Shown one piece after another: positions 1,437 through 31,697 of a stretch of 36,430 nt of DNA (position 1 is its first letter; every line of letters starts with the position of its first letter). The position numbers and the translations under genes were made by a program. Source of the stretch: a virus (Duplodnaviria; Caudoviricetes); IMG/VR virus record IMGVR_UViG_3300020045_003023, positions 1 to 36,430 of that record; one strand, 5' to 3'. The notes below the pieces were generated by a model that was not told the DNA's origin, did no database searches, and saw nothing but the letters and a program-made list of their open reading frames with translations.

Positions 1437-2041
1437 TCACCTCATTCCACGGCCTGCGGGCCTATCGCGGCAGCTCCACACCGCTTGGCATCCTGAGAGC
1501 GGCCAAAACCGCGCTGTCGGGCGTGGAAATTTGTACCGCAGACCGGCCTATCGGTCCGATTGGCTTAGCGGTCTTCGGCCATGCCAGCGCAGTTTTCGAG
1601 CGCGACGTGTGGAGTGAAGTAAACCATGGCCAGCGCGTGGGGTGTGGCCGGTACTATCGCGAGGATGGCGGTCAAGACTGGTATCCGCTGAGTGCGGTGG
1701 AGCTGGCACAAGAGTGGGAGTTGGGCGCGATTTTCGATGCGCCATCACAGCAAGATTATGAATCGTTTTGCGCCGCTCACAGATACCACGACAAGCACTA
1801 CTGCGAGCCATGGGTGGAGGCTGAGGCCTGCCGCGCAATCTGGGTCAAGGATTGGGCGCCAGCGCGCGACAAAAAAATCGCGCGGCTGGTAGCGAAGATA
1901 CTTGGAGTCCCGTTTGTCGAGATAACCCAGTCATGCCGTATTGAGGATTTTCTCGATGAACACAGCCTGCCTGTACGCATCTGTCGCCAGCATGGGAAGA
2001 CGCGCCGCAGTGGCAGAAGGACAGCGCAATGCTCGGCGTGA
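1433..2041 (+). CDS. Hypothetical protein (weak ADP-ribosyltransferase-like motif pattern)
   Basis: AGGAG RBS with TTG at 1433 overlapping the previous TGA; FHG...EICT...DVWS...YCEPWV. The C-terminal ~20 aa look like out-of-frame read-through. Confidence 0.55.
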   Translation: MITSFHGLRAYRGSSTPLGILRAAKTALSGVEICTADRPIGPIGLAVFGHASAVFERDVWSEVNHGQRVGCGRYYREDGGQDWYPLSAVELAQEWELGAIFDAPSQQDYESFCAAHRYHDKHYCEPWVEAEACRAIWVKDWAPARDKKIARLVAKILGVPFVEITQSCRIEDFLDEHSLPVRICRQHGKTRRSGRRTAQCSA

Positions 2042-2259
2042 AGCTGCACACCGAAAACCCGAATGCGGGGGCGCAGGCGAGCCACGGAAGCTGGATGGCG
2101 CAGAAGCTGGCCGAAGGCTGGGAGCACGGCCCGACGAAAGACCCGGAAGCGAAGCGCCACCCGTGCATTGTTCCGTTCGACGCGCTGCCGGTAGAGCAGC
2201 AAGCGAAGGACCATCTGTTTCACGCTGTGGTCCACGCGCTGGCTAAGCTGGGACGATAA
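1984..2259 (+). CDS. RyR-domain (PF02026-like) phage protein, apparently 5'-truncated; in-frame ATG at 2029
   Basis: SPAWEDAPQWQKDSAMLGVKLH...SHGSWMAQKLAEGWEHGPTKDPEAKRHPCIVPFDALPVEQQAKD is the RyR signature. In-frame stops lie at 1942 and 1957 upstream. Confidence 0.8.
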   Translation, partial: SPAWEDAPQWQKDSAMLGVKLHTENPNAGAQASHGSWMAQKLAEGWEHGPTKDPEAKRHPCIVPFDALPVEQQAKDHLFHAVVHALAKLGR

Positions 2260-2293
2260 TAGACATCCAAAACGTGACATCAAGAGGCTGGCG

Positions 2294-2542
2294 ATGAATT
2301 ACACAATGACCGAAGCCGGCAAGGTGCTGACCGAAACGCTGGAAGGCATAACGATGCCGGCAGACTACAGCTTTGCCACGGTGAATGACTACGTGCATGG
2401 CGTTGGCGTGCATTTTGAGGATCTGGTCGCGCTATGTCTTAGCATGGCCGACCATATCGACAATCTACGGCGCGGCGAGTTTATCTGCACGCGGTGCGGG
2501 CTGCGCAAGGACTCGGAGTGGAACGCGCAACATAATTTTTAA
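2294..2542 (+). CDS. Hypothetical protein with C-terminal CxxC motif
   Basis: GAGG RBS; 'GEFICTRCGLRKD' motif. Confidence 0.7.
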   Translation: MNYTMTEAGKVLTETLEGITMPADYSFATVNDYVHGVGVHFEDLVALCLSMADHIDNLRRGEFICTRCGLRKDSEWNAQHNF

Positions 2543-2600
2543 TAATTTAGATAGACGGCGCGCCGCTTTTGGCGCGTCCGTGTTGACCGACGGGTTGGCA
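2541..2600 (-). other. attC-like recombination hairpin in inverted orientation
   Basis: AAT-AATTTAGA-TAGACGG-CGCGCC-GCTTTT-GGCGCG-T-CCGTGTT-G-ACCGACGG-GTTGGCA. It has the layout of an attC bottom strand, including unpaired T and G and a terminal GTT core. Confidence 0.6.
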
Positions 2601-3292
2601 GGCAAAACGGTAACTACGGAGTGATGATGGCTGAGAAAGTGACAATCGGGAATTGCGAACTGTGGCACGGCGACTGCCGCGAAGTGCTGCCGCTGCTTCC
2701 GCCCGTTGATCTGGTGCTGACCGACCCGCCATACGGCATTGGGATTGCGGCAAACCCGGTGCGGCAAGCGCACGAAAAGATGGAGTGGGACGCCGAAGCG
2801 CCGGCCGCCTGGCTGTTTGGCCTGATGCAAGAGAAGGCGAAGCACCTGATTGTGTGGGGCGGCAATTACTTCCCGCTGCCGCCGAGCCAGACGTTCTTGG
2901 TGTGGGACAAGATGCAGCCGGAGAACTTCAGCTTGGCGATGTGCGAACAGGCTTGGTGCTCTTTCAAGAAGCCGGCAAAGATGCACCGCCTGAGCGTGAC
3001 GAGCTACGAGAAAGAGCACCCGACACAGAAGCCGGTGCGGCTGATGGAGTGGTGCATAAGCCACGCCCCGGAAGCCGAAACGGTTTGCGACCCATTCATG
3101 GGTACGGGAACCACTGGGGTGGCTTGCGTGAACTTGGGCAAGGCGTTCGTTGGGATTGAGCGCGAACGCAAATACTTTGACATAGCCTGCCGCCGAATAG
3201 AGCAAGCCTACGCACAGCCCCGGCTGTTCGAGGATGCGAAAGTCGGCGCTGGCGAGGCGGCGGTGCAGGGCGACATGCTTTTGCCTGCCAAC
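2594..3292. mobile_element. Integron-like gene cassette carrying the DNA methyltransferase
   Basis: Perfect 14-bp inverted ends GTTGGCAGGCAAAA (2594-2607) and TTTTGCCTGCCAAC (3279-3292), starting with GTT and ending with AAC. Confidence 0.55.
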
Positions 3293-3319
3293 AATCTAGA
3301 TAGACGGAGAAAAAAATGA
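2627..3319 (+). CDS. DNA methyltransferase, N6-adenine/N4-cytosine beta class
   Basis: Motif IV TDPPY precedes HPTQKP and motif I DPFMGTGTTG; GGAG RBS. Confidence 0.92.
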   Translation: MAEKVTIGNCELWHGDCREVLPLLPPVDLVLTDPPYGIGIAANPVRQAHEKMEWDAEAPAAWLFGLMQEKAKHLIVWGGNYFPLPPSQTFLVWDKMQPENFSLAMCEQAWCSFKKPAKMHRLSVTSYEKEHPTQKPVRLMEWCISHAPEAETVCDPFMGTGTTGVACVNLGKAFVGIERERKYFDIACRRIEQAYAQPRLFEDAKVGAGEAAVQGDMLLPANNLDRRRKK

Positions 3320-3519
3320 CAATTTTATCAATCGTGCTTTTTGTTTTTATGATTTTTTCACTCGGCGCTTGCGTTGGCTTTGCTATTCGCGCGTCGTTAG
3401 AGTGGAAAAATTTGGCGTGGGAAAGCGACAGCATTGCAGACAAGTTTTATTCGCGCGCGCTTGTCTGCTGTGGGCTGTTTATTTTTTGGGGGTCAATGTT
3501 TGTGTGGTCTGTGTTCTGA
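3316..3519 (+). CDS. Small membrane protein with 2 transmembrane segments
   Basis: Two hydrophobic stretches; ATGA overlap; abuts the convergent lysis cluster. Confidence 0.6.
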   Translation: MTILSIVLFVFMIFSLGACVGFAIRASLEWKNLAWESDSIADKFYSRALVCCGLFIFWGSMFVWSVF

Positions 3520-3900
3520 TCATCCCGGCGGCCAGCCAAGCATTTTTTGCAGGATGGCCGCAGCACCAGCTCCAATCGCGCCCCACTTTGCGACACACAA
3601 AACCGCACGCTGGGCGGCAGACCCGACGCGCGCGGCACCTTGGAAATCCTTGTGCAGCTGCACGATGTCGCGGGTCTCACCGATCAGATCGGCCACCGCC
3701 TTGGCGTTGCTTGCCGTCGCAGCGACCAGCGATTCCAGCTGGTCCCCGATGGCTTGCCATCTGCCATCTTGCTCTTTGCGCCAGGCGCAGTGCTCATCTC
3801 GCCAGCTCTTTTCGTCCTCGACGTGCTGCATCATCATAGCCTTCAACCCGGCAAGCTCCGCGTCACTAAATCTCACGTCCTGCTCCATCTTTTCGCCCAC
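3520..3900 (-). CDS. Lysis-region coiled-coil protein with C-terminal membrane anchor
   Basis: Last gene of the late operon; C-terminal 'AKWGAIGAGAAAIL'. The start may be the ATG near 3888. Confidence 0.6.
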   Translation of the reverse strand: MGEKMEQDVRFSDAELAGLKAMMMQHVEDEKSWRDEHCAWRKEQDGRWQAIGDQLESLVAATASNAKAVADLIGETRDIVQLHKDFQGAARVGSAAQRAVLCVAKWGAIGAGAAAILQKMLGWPPG

Positions 3901-5089: not shown

Positions 5090-7516
5090 TTAATACACGA
5101 CCAAGATTGAGCCAGTAGCTGTTTTATATACAAAACCTGCAGTTCTGCCTCCTGCTAATGCTGCAGCGTTATCAGCATATGTAGGAAGATTGTATGCATA
5201 CAGATTTTGGATATGACATTGTGCCCATGTACGTGCAACAGAGCCAAGATGGGCGGTATTATCATCAATAGGACTTAAAATATCTCCACTGATAAGAACT
5301 CTAGCAATACCTGCTGCCATTAAATATAAAGACTTCTCAACATCCCCAATAACGGTATGATCAACAATCGAACTATCCGGCATTCTGCTTGCCATATATG
5401 GACGAGAGTTAGAATATTTCGAATCATAGATTTGAATGGCTCCATAAGCCGTTCTGAAGCTCAATCCAGTCATTACCGCAGAATAAACAACCATTGCCCC
5501 TAGGCTGGTTGGGTGATTAACACCATTCCCACCATAAGGCTGTTGAGTTGCAGCAGTAGCAGCAGGTGTTCCCCAAATTTCTTGGTTAGTAAGTACCGGC
5601 TGATATTTGCGATAACGACCTACAGCGACCGACACTGTAGAAACAGGCCCTGCTGCATAAGCATCTTCATACCACCCAACAGAAGGTGCAAACTCTCCTC
5701 CATGAATTGACATCTCATCCAGCACGTACAACTCATCGTTATAGCTCGAATCCGTCTTGCGAATTGTTAGCCTCTGACCACGACGCTCCACAATGAAGGT
5801 TGTGTTTGTTGTCGGTATAGCAATACCTGTATCAACTCCATCATCGCCACCAGCAATAGTAACCGTGTCGGTTAAATAGACTCGTGCCCAGATGTTTGAA
5901 GTAGCGACGTTTGAGTTGTTTAGGCTCGTTAAAACTAGGCGGCCATATCCAAAATATCCACCATCTATCTTGACAGCCAGTGTCTTACTAAGAGTCCCAT
6001 CGAACATGTCTTCCAATTCACCAGCTGTACCTTCTAGTGTGAAATCAACACGGAAATCCGAGCACTCATTATCTGTCGTTGCAATATAGGAACCAGTAGC
6101 CGAAACATCTAGGCTGGTCTCAATCTGTTCAAGATAGGATTCACAAATATCACGTCCATCTCGAATAATACCGAATGCCCGGTTTATGTCAATCAGGCCA
6201 ATATGGTTTGCTCTACAATAATTTCTAGTATATCCGGCATTCCAGTCCCGGCTTACCTGCCCAATATCTTTTGTACCATACGTCACATAATTGGCATGCG
6301 GGCTGGTGGTTGGAACCATTGGTGTGCAGACAATAATATCTGGCACTTTAGTAAATAAGCGAATCTTACCAATGACTTGCTGAAAAGAGAAATAACTAAA
6401 TGCAGCAGCATCATTCATTCCGAATGATAGAACTACAAGATCAGGGGCTTCTGTAGAAATATAGTCCAACCATGGATCAGTCGTTACTGTATACCAAGAA
6501 GGGAAAGTAATAGGTACATCATTAGCCGTTGCATAGGTTTCCCCAGCAATAGAGCGGTTTACAAATGTGATTGTCTTCTGTGGGTTCTCTGCTTGTAGTT
6601 TTCTTGCAATAATATCTGCAAGCATTCCCTGCCTACCAAGAGCATTCGCAGCCCCAAGAGTTAACAAAGAGTCGCCCATGAAAACCACTTTTGGCGTGTC
6701 AGTGGTCTTGAACTGAATCAAGTGGCGGTCAGGATCAAAGTCCCCACAGAAGGATGGTTGAGAGATCGGTTCATCAGGGGTATGTACCAGAACACGATAC
6801 ATTCCATCACCAGTGAATTTTCCAGTTCCGTAGAAAATGACTTCACCGCGAGAGGTTATTGCATCTGGGCAGTAACAGGTTCCGTTAATTCCATGCAATT
6901 CTCGGATACTGTTACTAAAGCAATAAGCAATTGCTGAGTTGACGTGAACACTGTCATTTGTAATGCCATCGAGACTTGGTGCCCATTGTGCAATGTCAAT
7001 TTGTGTCCCGAACTCAGCAACAAATTCCACAGCAGGGTTCCCTGCACTCTTAATTCTACTACCTCCATCCTCCGCATTAGCGGTGACATTCACCACCTCA
7101 TAAGGAGCAGGTCTGCCGGTTGCGTAAAACCACTGCCCCGCTGTGACGCTCGCGTCGTTTTTCCACTCTGCAATGGTTTTCCATCCCCGAAAATTTGCGT
7201 AATTCGCGTCTATTGATGGCGCGATATTGTCGGCAACCTGAATAGCACTCGCCGTGTTGTTTGCGTCGGCGTCTGCTGCTGTTGGGAACAAATACAGGTC
7301 ATAATCTGCGTTGAAGTGCGGGATGAACTTGGCCCCGCCTGCTGTTTTAATGTACCCGTCGTTTCCAATCTCGGCTTTTGCCAGCGTCGTGCCGGCCGAA
7401 GCGTCCGTGGCCATTGCAAGAGGCGTTGTCGTGCCTTGCAGGTAGCCCTTTATCCAGTAGTTGATTTGCTCGTACTGCGGCGCTACAAAGGCGATAGGTG
7501 CATAGCTTGCCATCAT
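5090..7516 (-). CDS. Tailspike / receptor-binding protein with SGNH (GDSL) esterase domain
   Basis: N-terminal particle-binding-like domain. SGNH blocks: VFMGDS, NRSIAG, SFGMND, GVNHPT. Positioned after the ejection proteins. Confidence 0.8.
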   Translation of the reverse strand: MMASYAPIAFVAPQYEQINYWIKGYLQGTTTPLAMATDASAGTTLAKAEIGNDGYIKTAGGAKFIPHFNADYDLYLFPTAADADANNTASAIQVADNIAPSIDANYANFRGWKTIAEWKNDASVTAGQWFYATGRPAPYEVVNVTANAEDGGSRIKSAGNPAVEFVAEFGTQIDIAQWAPSLDGITNDSVHVNSAIAYCFSNSIRELHGINGTCYCPDAITSRGEVIFYGTGKFTGDGMYRVLVHTPDEPISQPSFCGDFDPDRHLIQFKTTDTPKVVFMGDSLLTLGAANALGRQGMLADIIARKLQAENPQKTITFVNRSIAGETYATANDVPITFPSWYTVTTDPWLDYISTEAPDLVVLSFGMNDAAAFSYFSFQQVIGKIRLFTKVPDIIVCTPMVPTTSPHANYVTYGTKDIGQVSRDWNAGYTRNYCRANHIGLIDINRAFGIIRDGRDICESYLEQIETSLDVSATGSYIATTDNECSDFRVDFTLEGTAGELEDMFDGTLSKTLAVKIDGGYFGYGRLVLTSLNNSNVATSNIWARVYLTDTVTIAGGDDGVDTGIAIPTTNTTFIVERRGQRLTIRKTDSSYNDELYVLDEMSIHGGEFAPSVGWYEDAYAAGPVSTVSVAVGRYRKYQPVLTNQEIWGTPAATAATQQPYGGNGVNHPTSLGAMVVYSAVMTGLSFRTAYGAIQIYDSKYSNSRPYMASRMPDSSIVDHTVIGDVEKSLYLMAAGIARVLISGDILSPIDDNTAHLGSVARTWAQCHIQNLYAYNLPTYADNAAALAGGRTAGFVYKTATGSILVVY

Positions 7517-23703: not shown

Positions 23704-23910
23704 TCAGTTTTGTGCCGCCCATGTTGCGGCTGTGTCAGTTTGTGCCGTCCACGTCGTCACAGCGTCAGCAGATGCGGCCCACGATGCGGCTGTGTCCGGG
23801 CTGGGTGTCCACGGCGATAGTTCGACGCCGATAGTATACCCTCTAGTGGCGATGTTGCTAATACTGCCCGTATACGTGCCATTTCCATAGCCGCGCGTGA
23901 CAATGATCAT
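23704..23910 (-). CDS. Small protein with xTRGY and 10-residue Trp repeats
   Basis: IVTRGYG...IATRGY; WTPSPDTAAS-WAASADAVTT-WTAQTDTAAT-WAAQN; ATGA overlap. Confidence 0.6.
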   Translation of the reverse strand: MIIVTRGYGNGTYTGSISNIATRGYTIGVELSPWTPSPDTAASWAASADAVTTWTAQTDTAATWAAQN

Positions 23911-26469: not shown

Positions 26470-26975
26470 GATCCAGATAGGTGCAATTATAACTTATATG
26501 TGGCCCAAAGCCGCATTTTTGCTTATTTTATCTAATTTTACCTTAATTTTAGGCTAAGCCTTTGTTTTTATTGGATTTTTTATATTTATATATAATATAT
26601 ATATATAGTTAAAGATGATGATGATGATGATGATTTGGAAAAAGTCTCTTAATGGGTGTTTTTCTTCAGTCAAATAATTGACAAAAAGAAAAAGTCTTAT
26701 GGGTATTTTTATATCTATCTCTGAGGTTCTCACTATATTAGCTACATTAAACGAAACACAATAAGAATCAAAGACTTAGGCGCAAAACTCGCGTTATCTT
26801 AATTCTGCTTATTTTATTTAAAACTATGTAAATCGCACAAAACACGTTAGCGCCCACTAACTTTCGACGGTTTTTTGACTAATTTTCTTTTCTTACTAAA
26901 ACGGTAGGGATTACGGCATGCCTAACGGCTTATAACTGTTTTCGCGCATCGTTATAGCAAACAATTATAAACAAG
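26470..26975. other. Putative replication origin (AT-rich non-coding region)
   Basis: The only long non-coding stretch, downstream of the primase. It has a TA-rich core at 26581-26607, (GAT)7 at 26614-26634, and imperfect inverted and direct repeats. Confidence 0.7.
26614..26634. repeat. (GAT)7 microsatellite
   Basis: Read directly from the sequence. Confidence 0.95.
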
Positions 26976-26978
26976 TTG

Positions 26979-27006
26979 TTGATTTTAATTTTGGCGGTGC
27001 TATAGT
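26979..27006 (+). promoter_or_regulatory. Sigma70-like promoter
   Basis: TTGATT-N16-TATAGT with extended -10 TG. Confidence 0.6.
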
Positions 27007-30609: not shown

Positions 30610-31155
<546 letters not shown>

Positions 31156-31187
31156 TATCCAAAACAATTTTTAATTGGAGTTAAAAT

Positions 31188-31697
31188 ATGAGCAATTTTT
31201 TCGGATCAGCAGCAAATACGGACGGGACTTACGAGCAAGCCGGCGGCGAACCGCTACCGGAAAACACCGTTGTCCTGGCGGCTCTTGAGTCTGTGGGTTA
31301 TGACACCTATGAAGGCGATACAACGATTAAATGCACATGGGTTGTGCTCAAGGGCGAATACCAAAACCGAAAGGTTTTCCAAAAAATCCGCAGCGAGGAT
31401 AGCGACAGCAGCAAGCGCGAAAAGGCGCTGAAAATGCTGGCGGCGATAGATCACAACTGCGGCGGAAAATTGGTGGCGGCCGGAACAAAACCAACGGACT
31501 TGTCGTTGCAGTCGGCGCTTGCGAACAAACCGATGTTTCTTAAGCTAGGACTGTGGGAAATGAACGGCAAAACGGGCAACTGGGTAAAAGCAGTCGCGCC
31601 CGCGAAAAAGCAAACGGACGCTGCTGCGCAACAAGTGCGGCGCCAATCGCCGGCCGCTGTCGCGGATGGCTTCGATGGCGACGACATCCCGTTCTGA
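31188..31697 (+). CDS. Single-stranded DNA-binding protein (DUF669-like)
   Basis: GEYQNRKVFQKI, GNWVKAV and acidic tail DDIPF. Confidence 0.85.
   Translation: MSNFFGSAANTDGTYEQAGGEPLPENTVVLAALESVGYDTYEGDTTIKCTWVVLKGEYQNRKVFQKIRSEDSDSSKREKALKMLAAIDHNCGGKLVAAGTKPTDLSLQSALANKPMFLKLGLWEMNGKTGNWVKAVAPAKKQTDAAAQQVRRQSPAAVADGFDGDDIPF

What the first reader, a model, noticed from the sequence alone, without database searches (positions are those of the whole stretch)
2541..3307. Methyltransferase packaged as an integron-like cassette with an inverted attC, in a phage with no integrase
Seen: a ~60-bp imperfect hairpin (2541-2600) with unpaired T and G ending in GTT, and perfect 14-bp complementary ends GTTGGCAGGCAAAA (2594) and TTTTGCCTGCCAAC (3279) bracketing the MTase gene. 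Knowledge: complementary GTT.../...AAC core sites and extrahelical G/T bases are hallmarks of attC cassettes. The layout here matches an attC bottom strand, so the gene is oriented opposite to canonical cassettes. Inference: the phage may gain or shuffle anti-defence genes through a host IntI-type recombinase, a phage cassette system acting in trans.
Basis: partly seen in the sequence, partly recalled or inferred. Interest (0 to 1): 0.85.

Follow-up and report, generated by a model that had tools for sequence, protein, structure and literature searches.

The report
Decayed reversed integron cassette in phage
This phage's DNA-methyltransferase gene sits on a 749-base integron-type cassette that faces the opposite way to bacterial cassettes and recurs in many other phages, some with their own integron integrase; here its recombination hairpin is damaged, so it is likely a stranded copy that an outside integrase pasted in, likely to shield the phage from host restriction enzymes.

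Summary
Largely confirmed, with one correction: the site in this window is damaged.

The hairpin (2541-2596) is an attC bottom strand on the coding strand. Its last 49 bases through the cassette start are identical to an intact site elsewhere, but the left arm differs at 6 of 18 positions (AAC is AAT). It scores 16 bits against 57-63 for intact sisters.

The same methyltransferase cassette occurs in 33 contexts with 31 different downstream neighbours, breaking at the AAC. A model built from phage sites scores class 1 attC sites at 54 bits. Genes lie on the attC bottom strand in phage arrays (108 of 145) but on the top strand in bacterial integrons (81 of 105).

This phage has no integrase. However, at least 28 viral loci carry such arrays upstream of a true IntI, and integrase-less arrays often end in a betaproteobacterial attI. 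So the enzyme need not be the host's.

Phage attC clusters are published (Qi 2023), including one that I find reversed; I found no paper stating the reversal. This scan has reported reversed phage cassettes before on other DNA. No recombination was tested here.

The parts
2541..2596 (+). Degenerate attC, bottom strand on the coding strand: AAT (for AAC) 2541-2543; altered left arm 2544-2555; inner stem and loop 2556-2580; bulge positions T2577, T2581, G2585; GTT 2594-2596
   Evidence: Model R1 16.1 bits vs 57-63 for intact sisters; 2559-2607 identical to L231, left arm 6 of 18 different; bulges taken from the fold of intact sister L235
2543..3291 (+). Cassette unit (749 bp) between the two AA|C crossover positions: hairpin first, then gene
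   Evidence: 32 of 36 BLAST segments ending between 3280 and 3350 end at 3292; loose contig ends at 3292; hairpin linked to the downstream gene. The exact crossover base is inferred from Nivina 2016
2594..2607 (+). 5' cassette end, complementary to 3279-3292
2618..2621 (+). Ribosome-binding site GGAG of the MTase
   Evidence: Sequence; conserved in relatives
2624..3319 (+). Orphan N6-adenine/N4-cytosine DNA methyltransferase (DPPY 34-37 before FxGxG 158-162); the last 8 codons and the stop lie outside the cassette
   Evidence: PF01555 E 1.5e-21, phrog_67 E 7.6e-50; DpnA and CcrM closest solved relatives; C-terminus varies with the neighbour
3279..3292 (+). 3' cassette end, closing in AAC
3290..3307 (+). 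Downstream half-site: no hairpin; direct repeat of 2541-2558; weakly attI-like (AAC-N8-TAGAC against N6 in host attI); overlaps the RBS of the next gene
   Evidence: attI matrix score 8.6, rank 49 of 362,790
2252..2271 (+). Possible decayed host-type attI (GAC-N5-TAGACATCC); a hint only
   Evidence: Top score in the window, 16.4, but the next is 16.0
2294..2542 (+). Upstream ORF whose stop codon overlaps the decayed crossover triplet
   Evidence: two contigs of run X7 carry a homologous gene end reading TAAC where the window has TAAT (30-letter loose end)

Best explanation
The segment is a single integron gene cassette of a phage-adapted, reversed type (attC in front of the gene, gene on the attC bottom strand) that was likely inserted at AA|C by an IntI-family integrase supplied from outside this genome and has since likely been immobilised by damage to its attC left arm. 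Shown: site family, orientation, breakpoints in relatives, IntI beside sister arrays, no integrase here, damaged site. Inferred: IntI recognises the folded bottom strand and exchanges one strand at AAC with an attI- or attG-like target. Reversal lets a promoterless gene be read by the phage's own rightward early transcript rather than by Pc. The MTase likely methylates phage DNA against host restriction. Weakly inferred (about 0.4): the 18-nt repeat arose when the cassette's left arm was overwritten by the similar (14 of 18) empty target site of a sibling genome, through the phage's Sak4/YqaJ recombination proteins.
For: Site identity: a phage-array hairpin (L012) is 92.4% identical over 66 nt to the aadB attC, which lies antisense to aadB. 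Model R1, built only from 78 phage sites, scores the two class 1 attC sites of L086 at 54.4 and 53.8 bits and finds 175 sites at bacterial intI loci. 96.2% of cells pair, with double-sided changes in 6 of 11 pairs. Mobility: 33 contexts of the cassette, 31 distinct downstream and 29 distinct upstream 20-mers. 101 of 145 phage cassettes have 7 or more complementary end bases vs 8.8 in shuffles. Orientation: 211 of 211 hits on the MTase strand; RBS plus start 103 vs 7 of 145; ORF test phage 108 bottom/41 top of 145, bacterial 7 bottom/81 top of 105. Enzyme: four array-adjacent proteins pass the TIGR02249 cut-off; 28 non-duplicate viral intI loci have upstream sites, genes co-directional with intI in 51 vs 2 of 74 cassettes. 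15 of 28 array termini read AAC-N6-TAG (background 73 of 7902), as do 20 of 39 bacterial attI candidates.
Against: No recombination was tested. The window's own site is below significance (E 0.056) and its target is a poor attI match (N8 spacer). No empty-site relative of this phage was found, so the insertion event and the repeat's origin are not shown. G/A-C/T covariation of the cassette ends is partial: 28 of 33 matched, 5 mismatched. One gene type is found with 26 different hairpins, and only 20 of 132 pairs sharing a gene start share a hairpin at 90% or more, so homologous recombination also reshuffles these units. R1 was built from '+'-strand phage sites, so its strand bias in those loci is partly by construction; the bacterial control addresses this. 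The RBS test on bacterial cassettes was weak (21 top vs 9 bottom of 105).
Confidence: 0.8

Rival explanations
1. The cassette type was built by IntI, but this copy reached this phage by homologous or microhomology recombination with another phage (ordinary mosaicism), with no integrase acting on this genome.
For: The left junction with relatives lies at 2556, inside the hairpin, not at 2543 (loose ends; BLAST starts). The genome encodes Sak4-like and YqaJ/RecE-like proteins. MTase termini are 90-99% conserved and the middle 29-50%, a sign of frequent homologous exchange.
Against: The right junction is exactly at the AAC, and a homologue of the upstream gene also ends in TAAC. This rival concerns only the last transfer step, not what the element is.
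Confidence: 0.3
2. The cassette is still excisable by a host IntI through its downstream half-site and the degenerate hairpin.
For: IntI accepts GWT secondary sites (bioRxiv 10.1101/2022.09.11.507474, passages). The inner stem and GTT are intact. Integrase-less arrays often end in host-type attI; only 1 of 7 near-complete array-bearing records has IntI.
Against: The crossover triplet is AAT and the L box does not pair. It is the only site in the genome.
Confidence: 0.1
3. The hairpin is a terminator or RNA element and the complementary ends are chance.
For: A 14-nt inverted pair arises in 49 of 200 shuffles; the window site's model E-value is 0.056.
Against: No terminator call and no Rfam match here. 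49 nt are identical to a 59.5-bit site, and the ends are conserved across 33 contexts.
Confidence: 0.02

Closest known systems
Phage CALINs, Qi et al. 2023 (PMC9892861; read: main text parts 1-4 to the start of the references, and supplement part 1 of 2; figures not held)
   Same: attC sites and MTase cassettes in integrase-less phages; 5 of 6 tested sites recombined with attI1 under IntI1. Their MW202573 array belongs to this family: 4 hits at 27-56 bits on the coding strand.
   Different: The text I read does not state that genes are reversed relative to attC, and reports IntI only in captured bacterial integrons. TJE1 is canonical in orientation. The window has a single, decayed site.
Class 1 and betaproteobacterial chromosomal integrons (intI, attI, attC cassettes; anatomy from Nivina 2016, PMC5027507, passages)
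   Same: Same attC fold and in part the same sequence; complementary cassette ends; same attI-intI geometry in sister phages; host-type attI at many array ends.
   Different: The gene lies on the bottom strand behind its attC and points towards attI/intI. The stop codon often lies beyond the cassette. No Pc is needed if the phage transcript reads through (inferred). This is not the top-strand inversion of Nivina Fig. 1D, which flips gene and attC together.
Single cassettes inserted at attG secondary sites (bioRxiv 10.1101/2022.09.11.507474, passages)
   Same: A lone cassette outside an integron, at a GTT/AAC triplet, expressed from a resident promoter.
   Different: Those are canonical cassettes in bacterial chromosomes. 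A simple insertion does not explain the 18-nt direct repeat.
Orphan phage amino-methyltransferases (PF01555, phrog_67)
   Same: Motifs and likely anti-restriction role.
   Different: Packaged as a cassette with conserved termini and a variable middle.

Membership tests
attC site | R boxes with a 5'-AAC crossover triplet on the bottom strand pairing with GTT | tested here: not met
   The window has AAT at 2541-2543. Met in sisters: AAC/GTT in 194 of 200 hits.
attC site | Paired L boxes with an extrahelical G | tested here: not met
   No L-box pairing in the window's fold; paired in L231 and L235.
attC site | Extrahelical bases on the arm opposite the AAC (bottom strand) | tested here: met
   T2577, T2581 and G2585 lie on the 3' arm; rule from Nivina 2016. 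Counted back from 2600 they are 24, 20 and 16, the numbers that paper gives for VCR2; that the counting origin is the same is my inference.
attC site | Score with an attC covariance model | tested here: inconclusive
   Own model: 16.1 bits, E 0.056. The IntegronFinder model was not available.
attC site | Recombined by IntI as a folded bottom strand | not testable with these tools
   Needs the attC x attI assay.
Integron gene cassette | One gene plus one attC, moving as a unit that breaks at the core triplet | tested here: met
   (in relatives).
Integron gene cassette | Gene on the top strand, upstream of its attC | tested here: not met
   Reversed.
Complete integron | intI in cis | tested here: not met
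   Met in sister phages L008, L014, L075, L004.
Complete integron | attI site | tested here: inconclusive
   3290: 8.6 bits with an N8 spacer; 2252: 16.4 bits, barely above background.
CALIN | Two or more attC sites without intI | tested here: not met
   One weak site in the genome.
N6A/N4C DNA methyltransferase | DPPY and FxGxG motifs, PF01555 | tested here: met
N6A/N4C DNA methyltransferase | Methylates a specific target and blocks restriction | not testable with these tools
   Needs expression and methylome sequencing.

The most novel reading that the evidence does not exclude
Phages of Betaproteobacteria run their own integron economy: a largely phage-specific IntI lineage with its own attI, plus integrase-less phages docked on host-type attI, share a pool of purpose-built reversed cassettes enriched in DNA-modification genes (MTases, Mom), making integrons a counter-defence tool as well as a bacterial one. 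This window is a locked-in end product of that traffic.
Probability: 0.6. Interest if true: 0.8.

Novelty: new variant of a known kind. Interest (0 to 1): 0.6.

Why it matters
Integrons are treated as bacterial platforms, and strand selectivity is explained as keeping genes readable from Pc. A large set of phage cassettes with the gene reversed, some beside a phage-borne IntI, would mean phages use the same chemistry with a different expression logic. It would also put sites 92% identical to clinical class 1 attC sites in a phage pool. It raises a testable question on how cassettes are made, since genes are joined to attC in a host- or phage-specific orientation. The window itself is a minor, damaged example.

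Tried and rejected
Empty-site or close relatives of this phage: none found.

Sequencing runs held only small shares (0.05-0.07). The 8 runs laid covered the cassette and pieces of upstream genes, not this phage, so no habitat or excised circle is claimed. One X1 joint running back to 2556 is from a relative and was not interpreted.

The exact hairpin was not found in GTDB genomes or GenBank phages. Rfam gave nothing relevant.

MW202573's homologous MTase (H1) is not in a cassette (no hit in L085); its array lies elsewhere.

The longest-ORF strand test was noisy (106 vs 38). double-counted strands and was replaced. The terminase check of IntI-bearing records was uninformative (2 of 22); their phage nature rests on IMG/VR classes and CheckV (11 of 22 at least 90% complete).

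The IntI tree is the quick version only: 26 of 33 viral rows group at SH-aLRT 90 with L309 and a long-branch IntI1; monophyly was not tested; 4 genome rows with stops were left out.

Literature: 8 searches found no paper stating reversed phage cassettes or a phage IntI lineage. Subscription journals, figures and bioRxiv supplements were not seen. No structure or complex prediction was run.

Full report
Setting. The window is a complete 36.3-kb podovirus-like genome (121-nt terminal repeat; CheckV 100%), with portal, terminase, capsid, primase, helicase, Sak4-like and YqaJ proteins. It has no tyrosine or serine recombinase by profile search in six frames. The MTase (2624-3319) lies near the end of the rightward run of small genes. 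The host is unknown; a betaproteobacterium is a guess from the relatives of the cassette system.

Observation. The 14-nt complementary ends are real but individually unremarkable (49 of 200 shuffles). The hairpin's inner stem folds. An 18-nt direct repeat joins 2541 and 3290.

The cassette moves. Of 80 viral loci with homologous MTases, 55 have attC-model hits; after dropping 3 duplicate loci, 44 of 52 have a site within 120 nt before the gene. 32 of 36 BLAST segments ending between 3280 and 3350 stop at 3292 (some contigs were fetched twice). Contigs of other runs also stop or diverge there. 33 distinct contexts give 31 downstream and 29 upstream neighbours. Across arrays, 101 of 145 cassettes have 7 or more complementary end bases (shuffled mean 8.8, maximum 21), while flanks of one hairpin do so in only 8 of 194. 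Hairpins follow the downstream gene: 90% identity or more in 20 of 132 pairs sharing a gene start, 3 of 162 sharing a gene end, and 77 of 17,796 unrelated pairs. The unit is therefore hairpin plus gene, cut at AA|C.

The sites are attC. One phage hairpin matches the aadB attC at 92.4%; in that record the match is antisense to aadB. A model from 78 phage sites shows L-box covariation and an unpaired G (the alignment was selected for folding, so this leans towards the structure). It scores class 1 sites at 54 bits and finds 175 sites around bacterial intI genes. Nivina 2016 places extrahelical bases opposite the AAC on the recombining bottom strand, as here on the coding strand.

The genes are reversed. 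Phage arrays: ORF on the bottom strand in 108 and on the top in 41 of 145; bacterial integrons: 7 and 81 of 105 (10 minus-strand hits of L288 and 3 hits at locus edges were left out; cassettes are not independent). RBS plus start follows the GTT in 103 of 145 phage cassettes vs 7 on the other strand. Qi 2023's MW202573 array is reversed too; TJE1 is not.

The enzyme. Four MTase-array loci carry an IntI right after the array. A search gave 53 viral intI loci; 28 non-duplicates have upstream sites, with cassette genes co-directional with intI in 51 vs 2 of 74. Most share a distinct attI beginning AAC-T-Y-A-A-A-T-T, 61-149 nt before the intI match. 26 of 33 viral IntI rows group in a quick tree (provisional). 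Yet only 3 of 48 array-bearing records, and 1 of 7 near-complete ones, have IntI. 15 of 28 array termini read AAC-N6-TAG, the form of 20 of 39 bacterial attI candidates; a matrix from 18 bacterial sites scores 12 of those 15 above 11 bits. Both phage and host integrases are therefore plausible suppliers. Cargo sampled beside IntI includes MTases and Mom-family proteins (10 hand-picked ORFs).

This copy is damaged. 2559-2607 is identical to the intact site in L231, but the left arm differs at 6 of 18 positions, including the crossover C, and is closer (2 of 18) to the downstream half-site. It scores 16.1 bits against 57-63 for intact sisters. Contigs from other runs diverge from the window at 2556 and continue with the intact arm. 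A homologue of the upstream gene ends in TAAC, so AAT is likely a decayed AAC. A simple IntI insertion does not duplicate the target. My best guess is conversion of the left arm by an empty sibling site 14 of 18 similar to it; arrival by homologous recombination is the rival. Neither is shown.

The protein. A beta-order amino-MTase (class name from my own knowledge) with intact motifs. Among 31 cassette proteins the termini are 90-99% identical to the window's and residues 41-140 only 29-50%, which suggests that specificity regions are swapped within a constant cassette shell. Protection from restriction is inferred, as in Qi 2023.

Verdict. It is a decayed solo member of a wide phage family that is partly in print as CALINs and already reported several times by this scan. 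The reversal and the phage-borne IntI were not found in print in 8 searches. Interest 0.6; new variant of a known kind.

Noticed in passing
L173, L174, L177, L183, L189-L192, L195-L198, L200, L204, L206, L209, L210, L220, L225 (upstream of intI): A conserved phage-type attI, different from the host type, followed by a short inverted repeat (CGACA...TGTCG) and then intI on the same strand as the cassette genes.
   Followed up: partly
L324 (MW202573) 2067-3740: The published CALIN of Qi 2023 has its attC bottom strands on the coding strand.
   Followed up: yes
window 2624-3292 and relatives: The MTase family has near-constant termini and a highly variable middle; summed contig depth is far higher at the ends.
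   Followed up: partly
window 2029-2271: A RyR-domain gene is shared on its own with other runs and ends at the best attI-like score of the genome; possibly an older relic.
   Followed up: partly
L245 (Halothiobacillus MAG) 2959-3780 and L309 (Sulfuricella MAG): Bacterial contigs with cassettes that look reversed; L309 also has the phage-type attI and groups with phage IntI. Possibly prophage-derived.
   Followed up: no
window 30897-31190 and 23713-23816: A 12-nt tandem repeat tract and three 30-nt-spaced repeats.
   Followed up: no
window 26501-27000 and 5090-7516: A 31% GC intergenic stretch, and a low-GC 808-aa protein with a GDSL/SGNH domain at the end of the structural genes.
   Followed up: no
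L004 1155-1225, L231 2230-2303, L196: Cassette genes often lack a stop and read into or through the next attC, so the C-terminus depends on the neighbour.
   Followed up: partly
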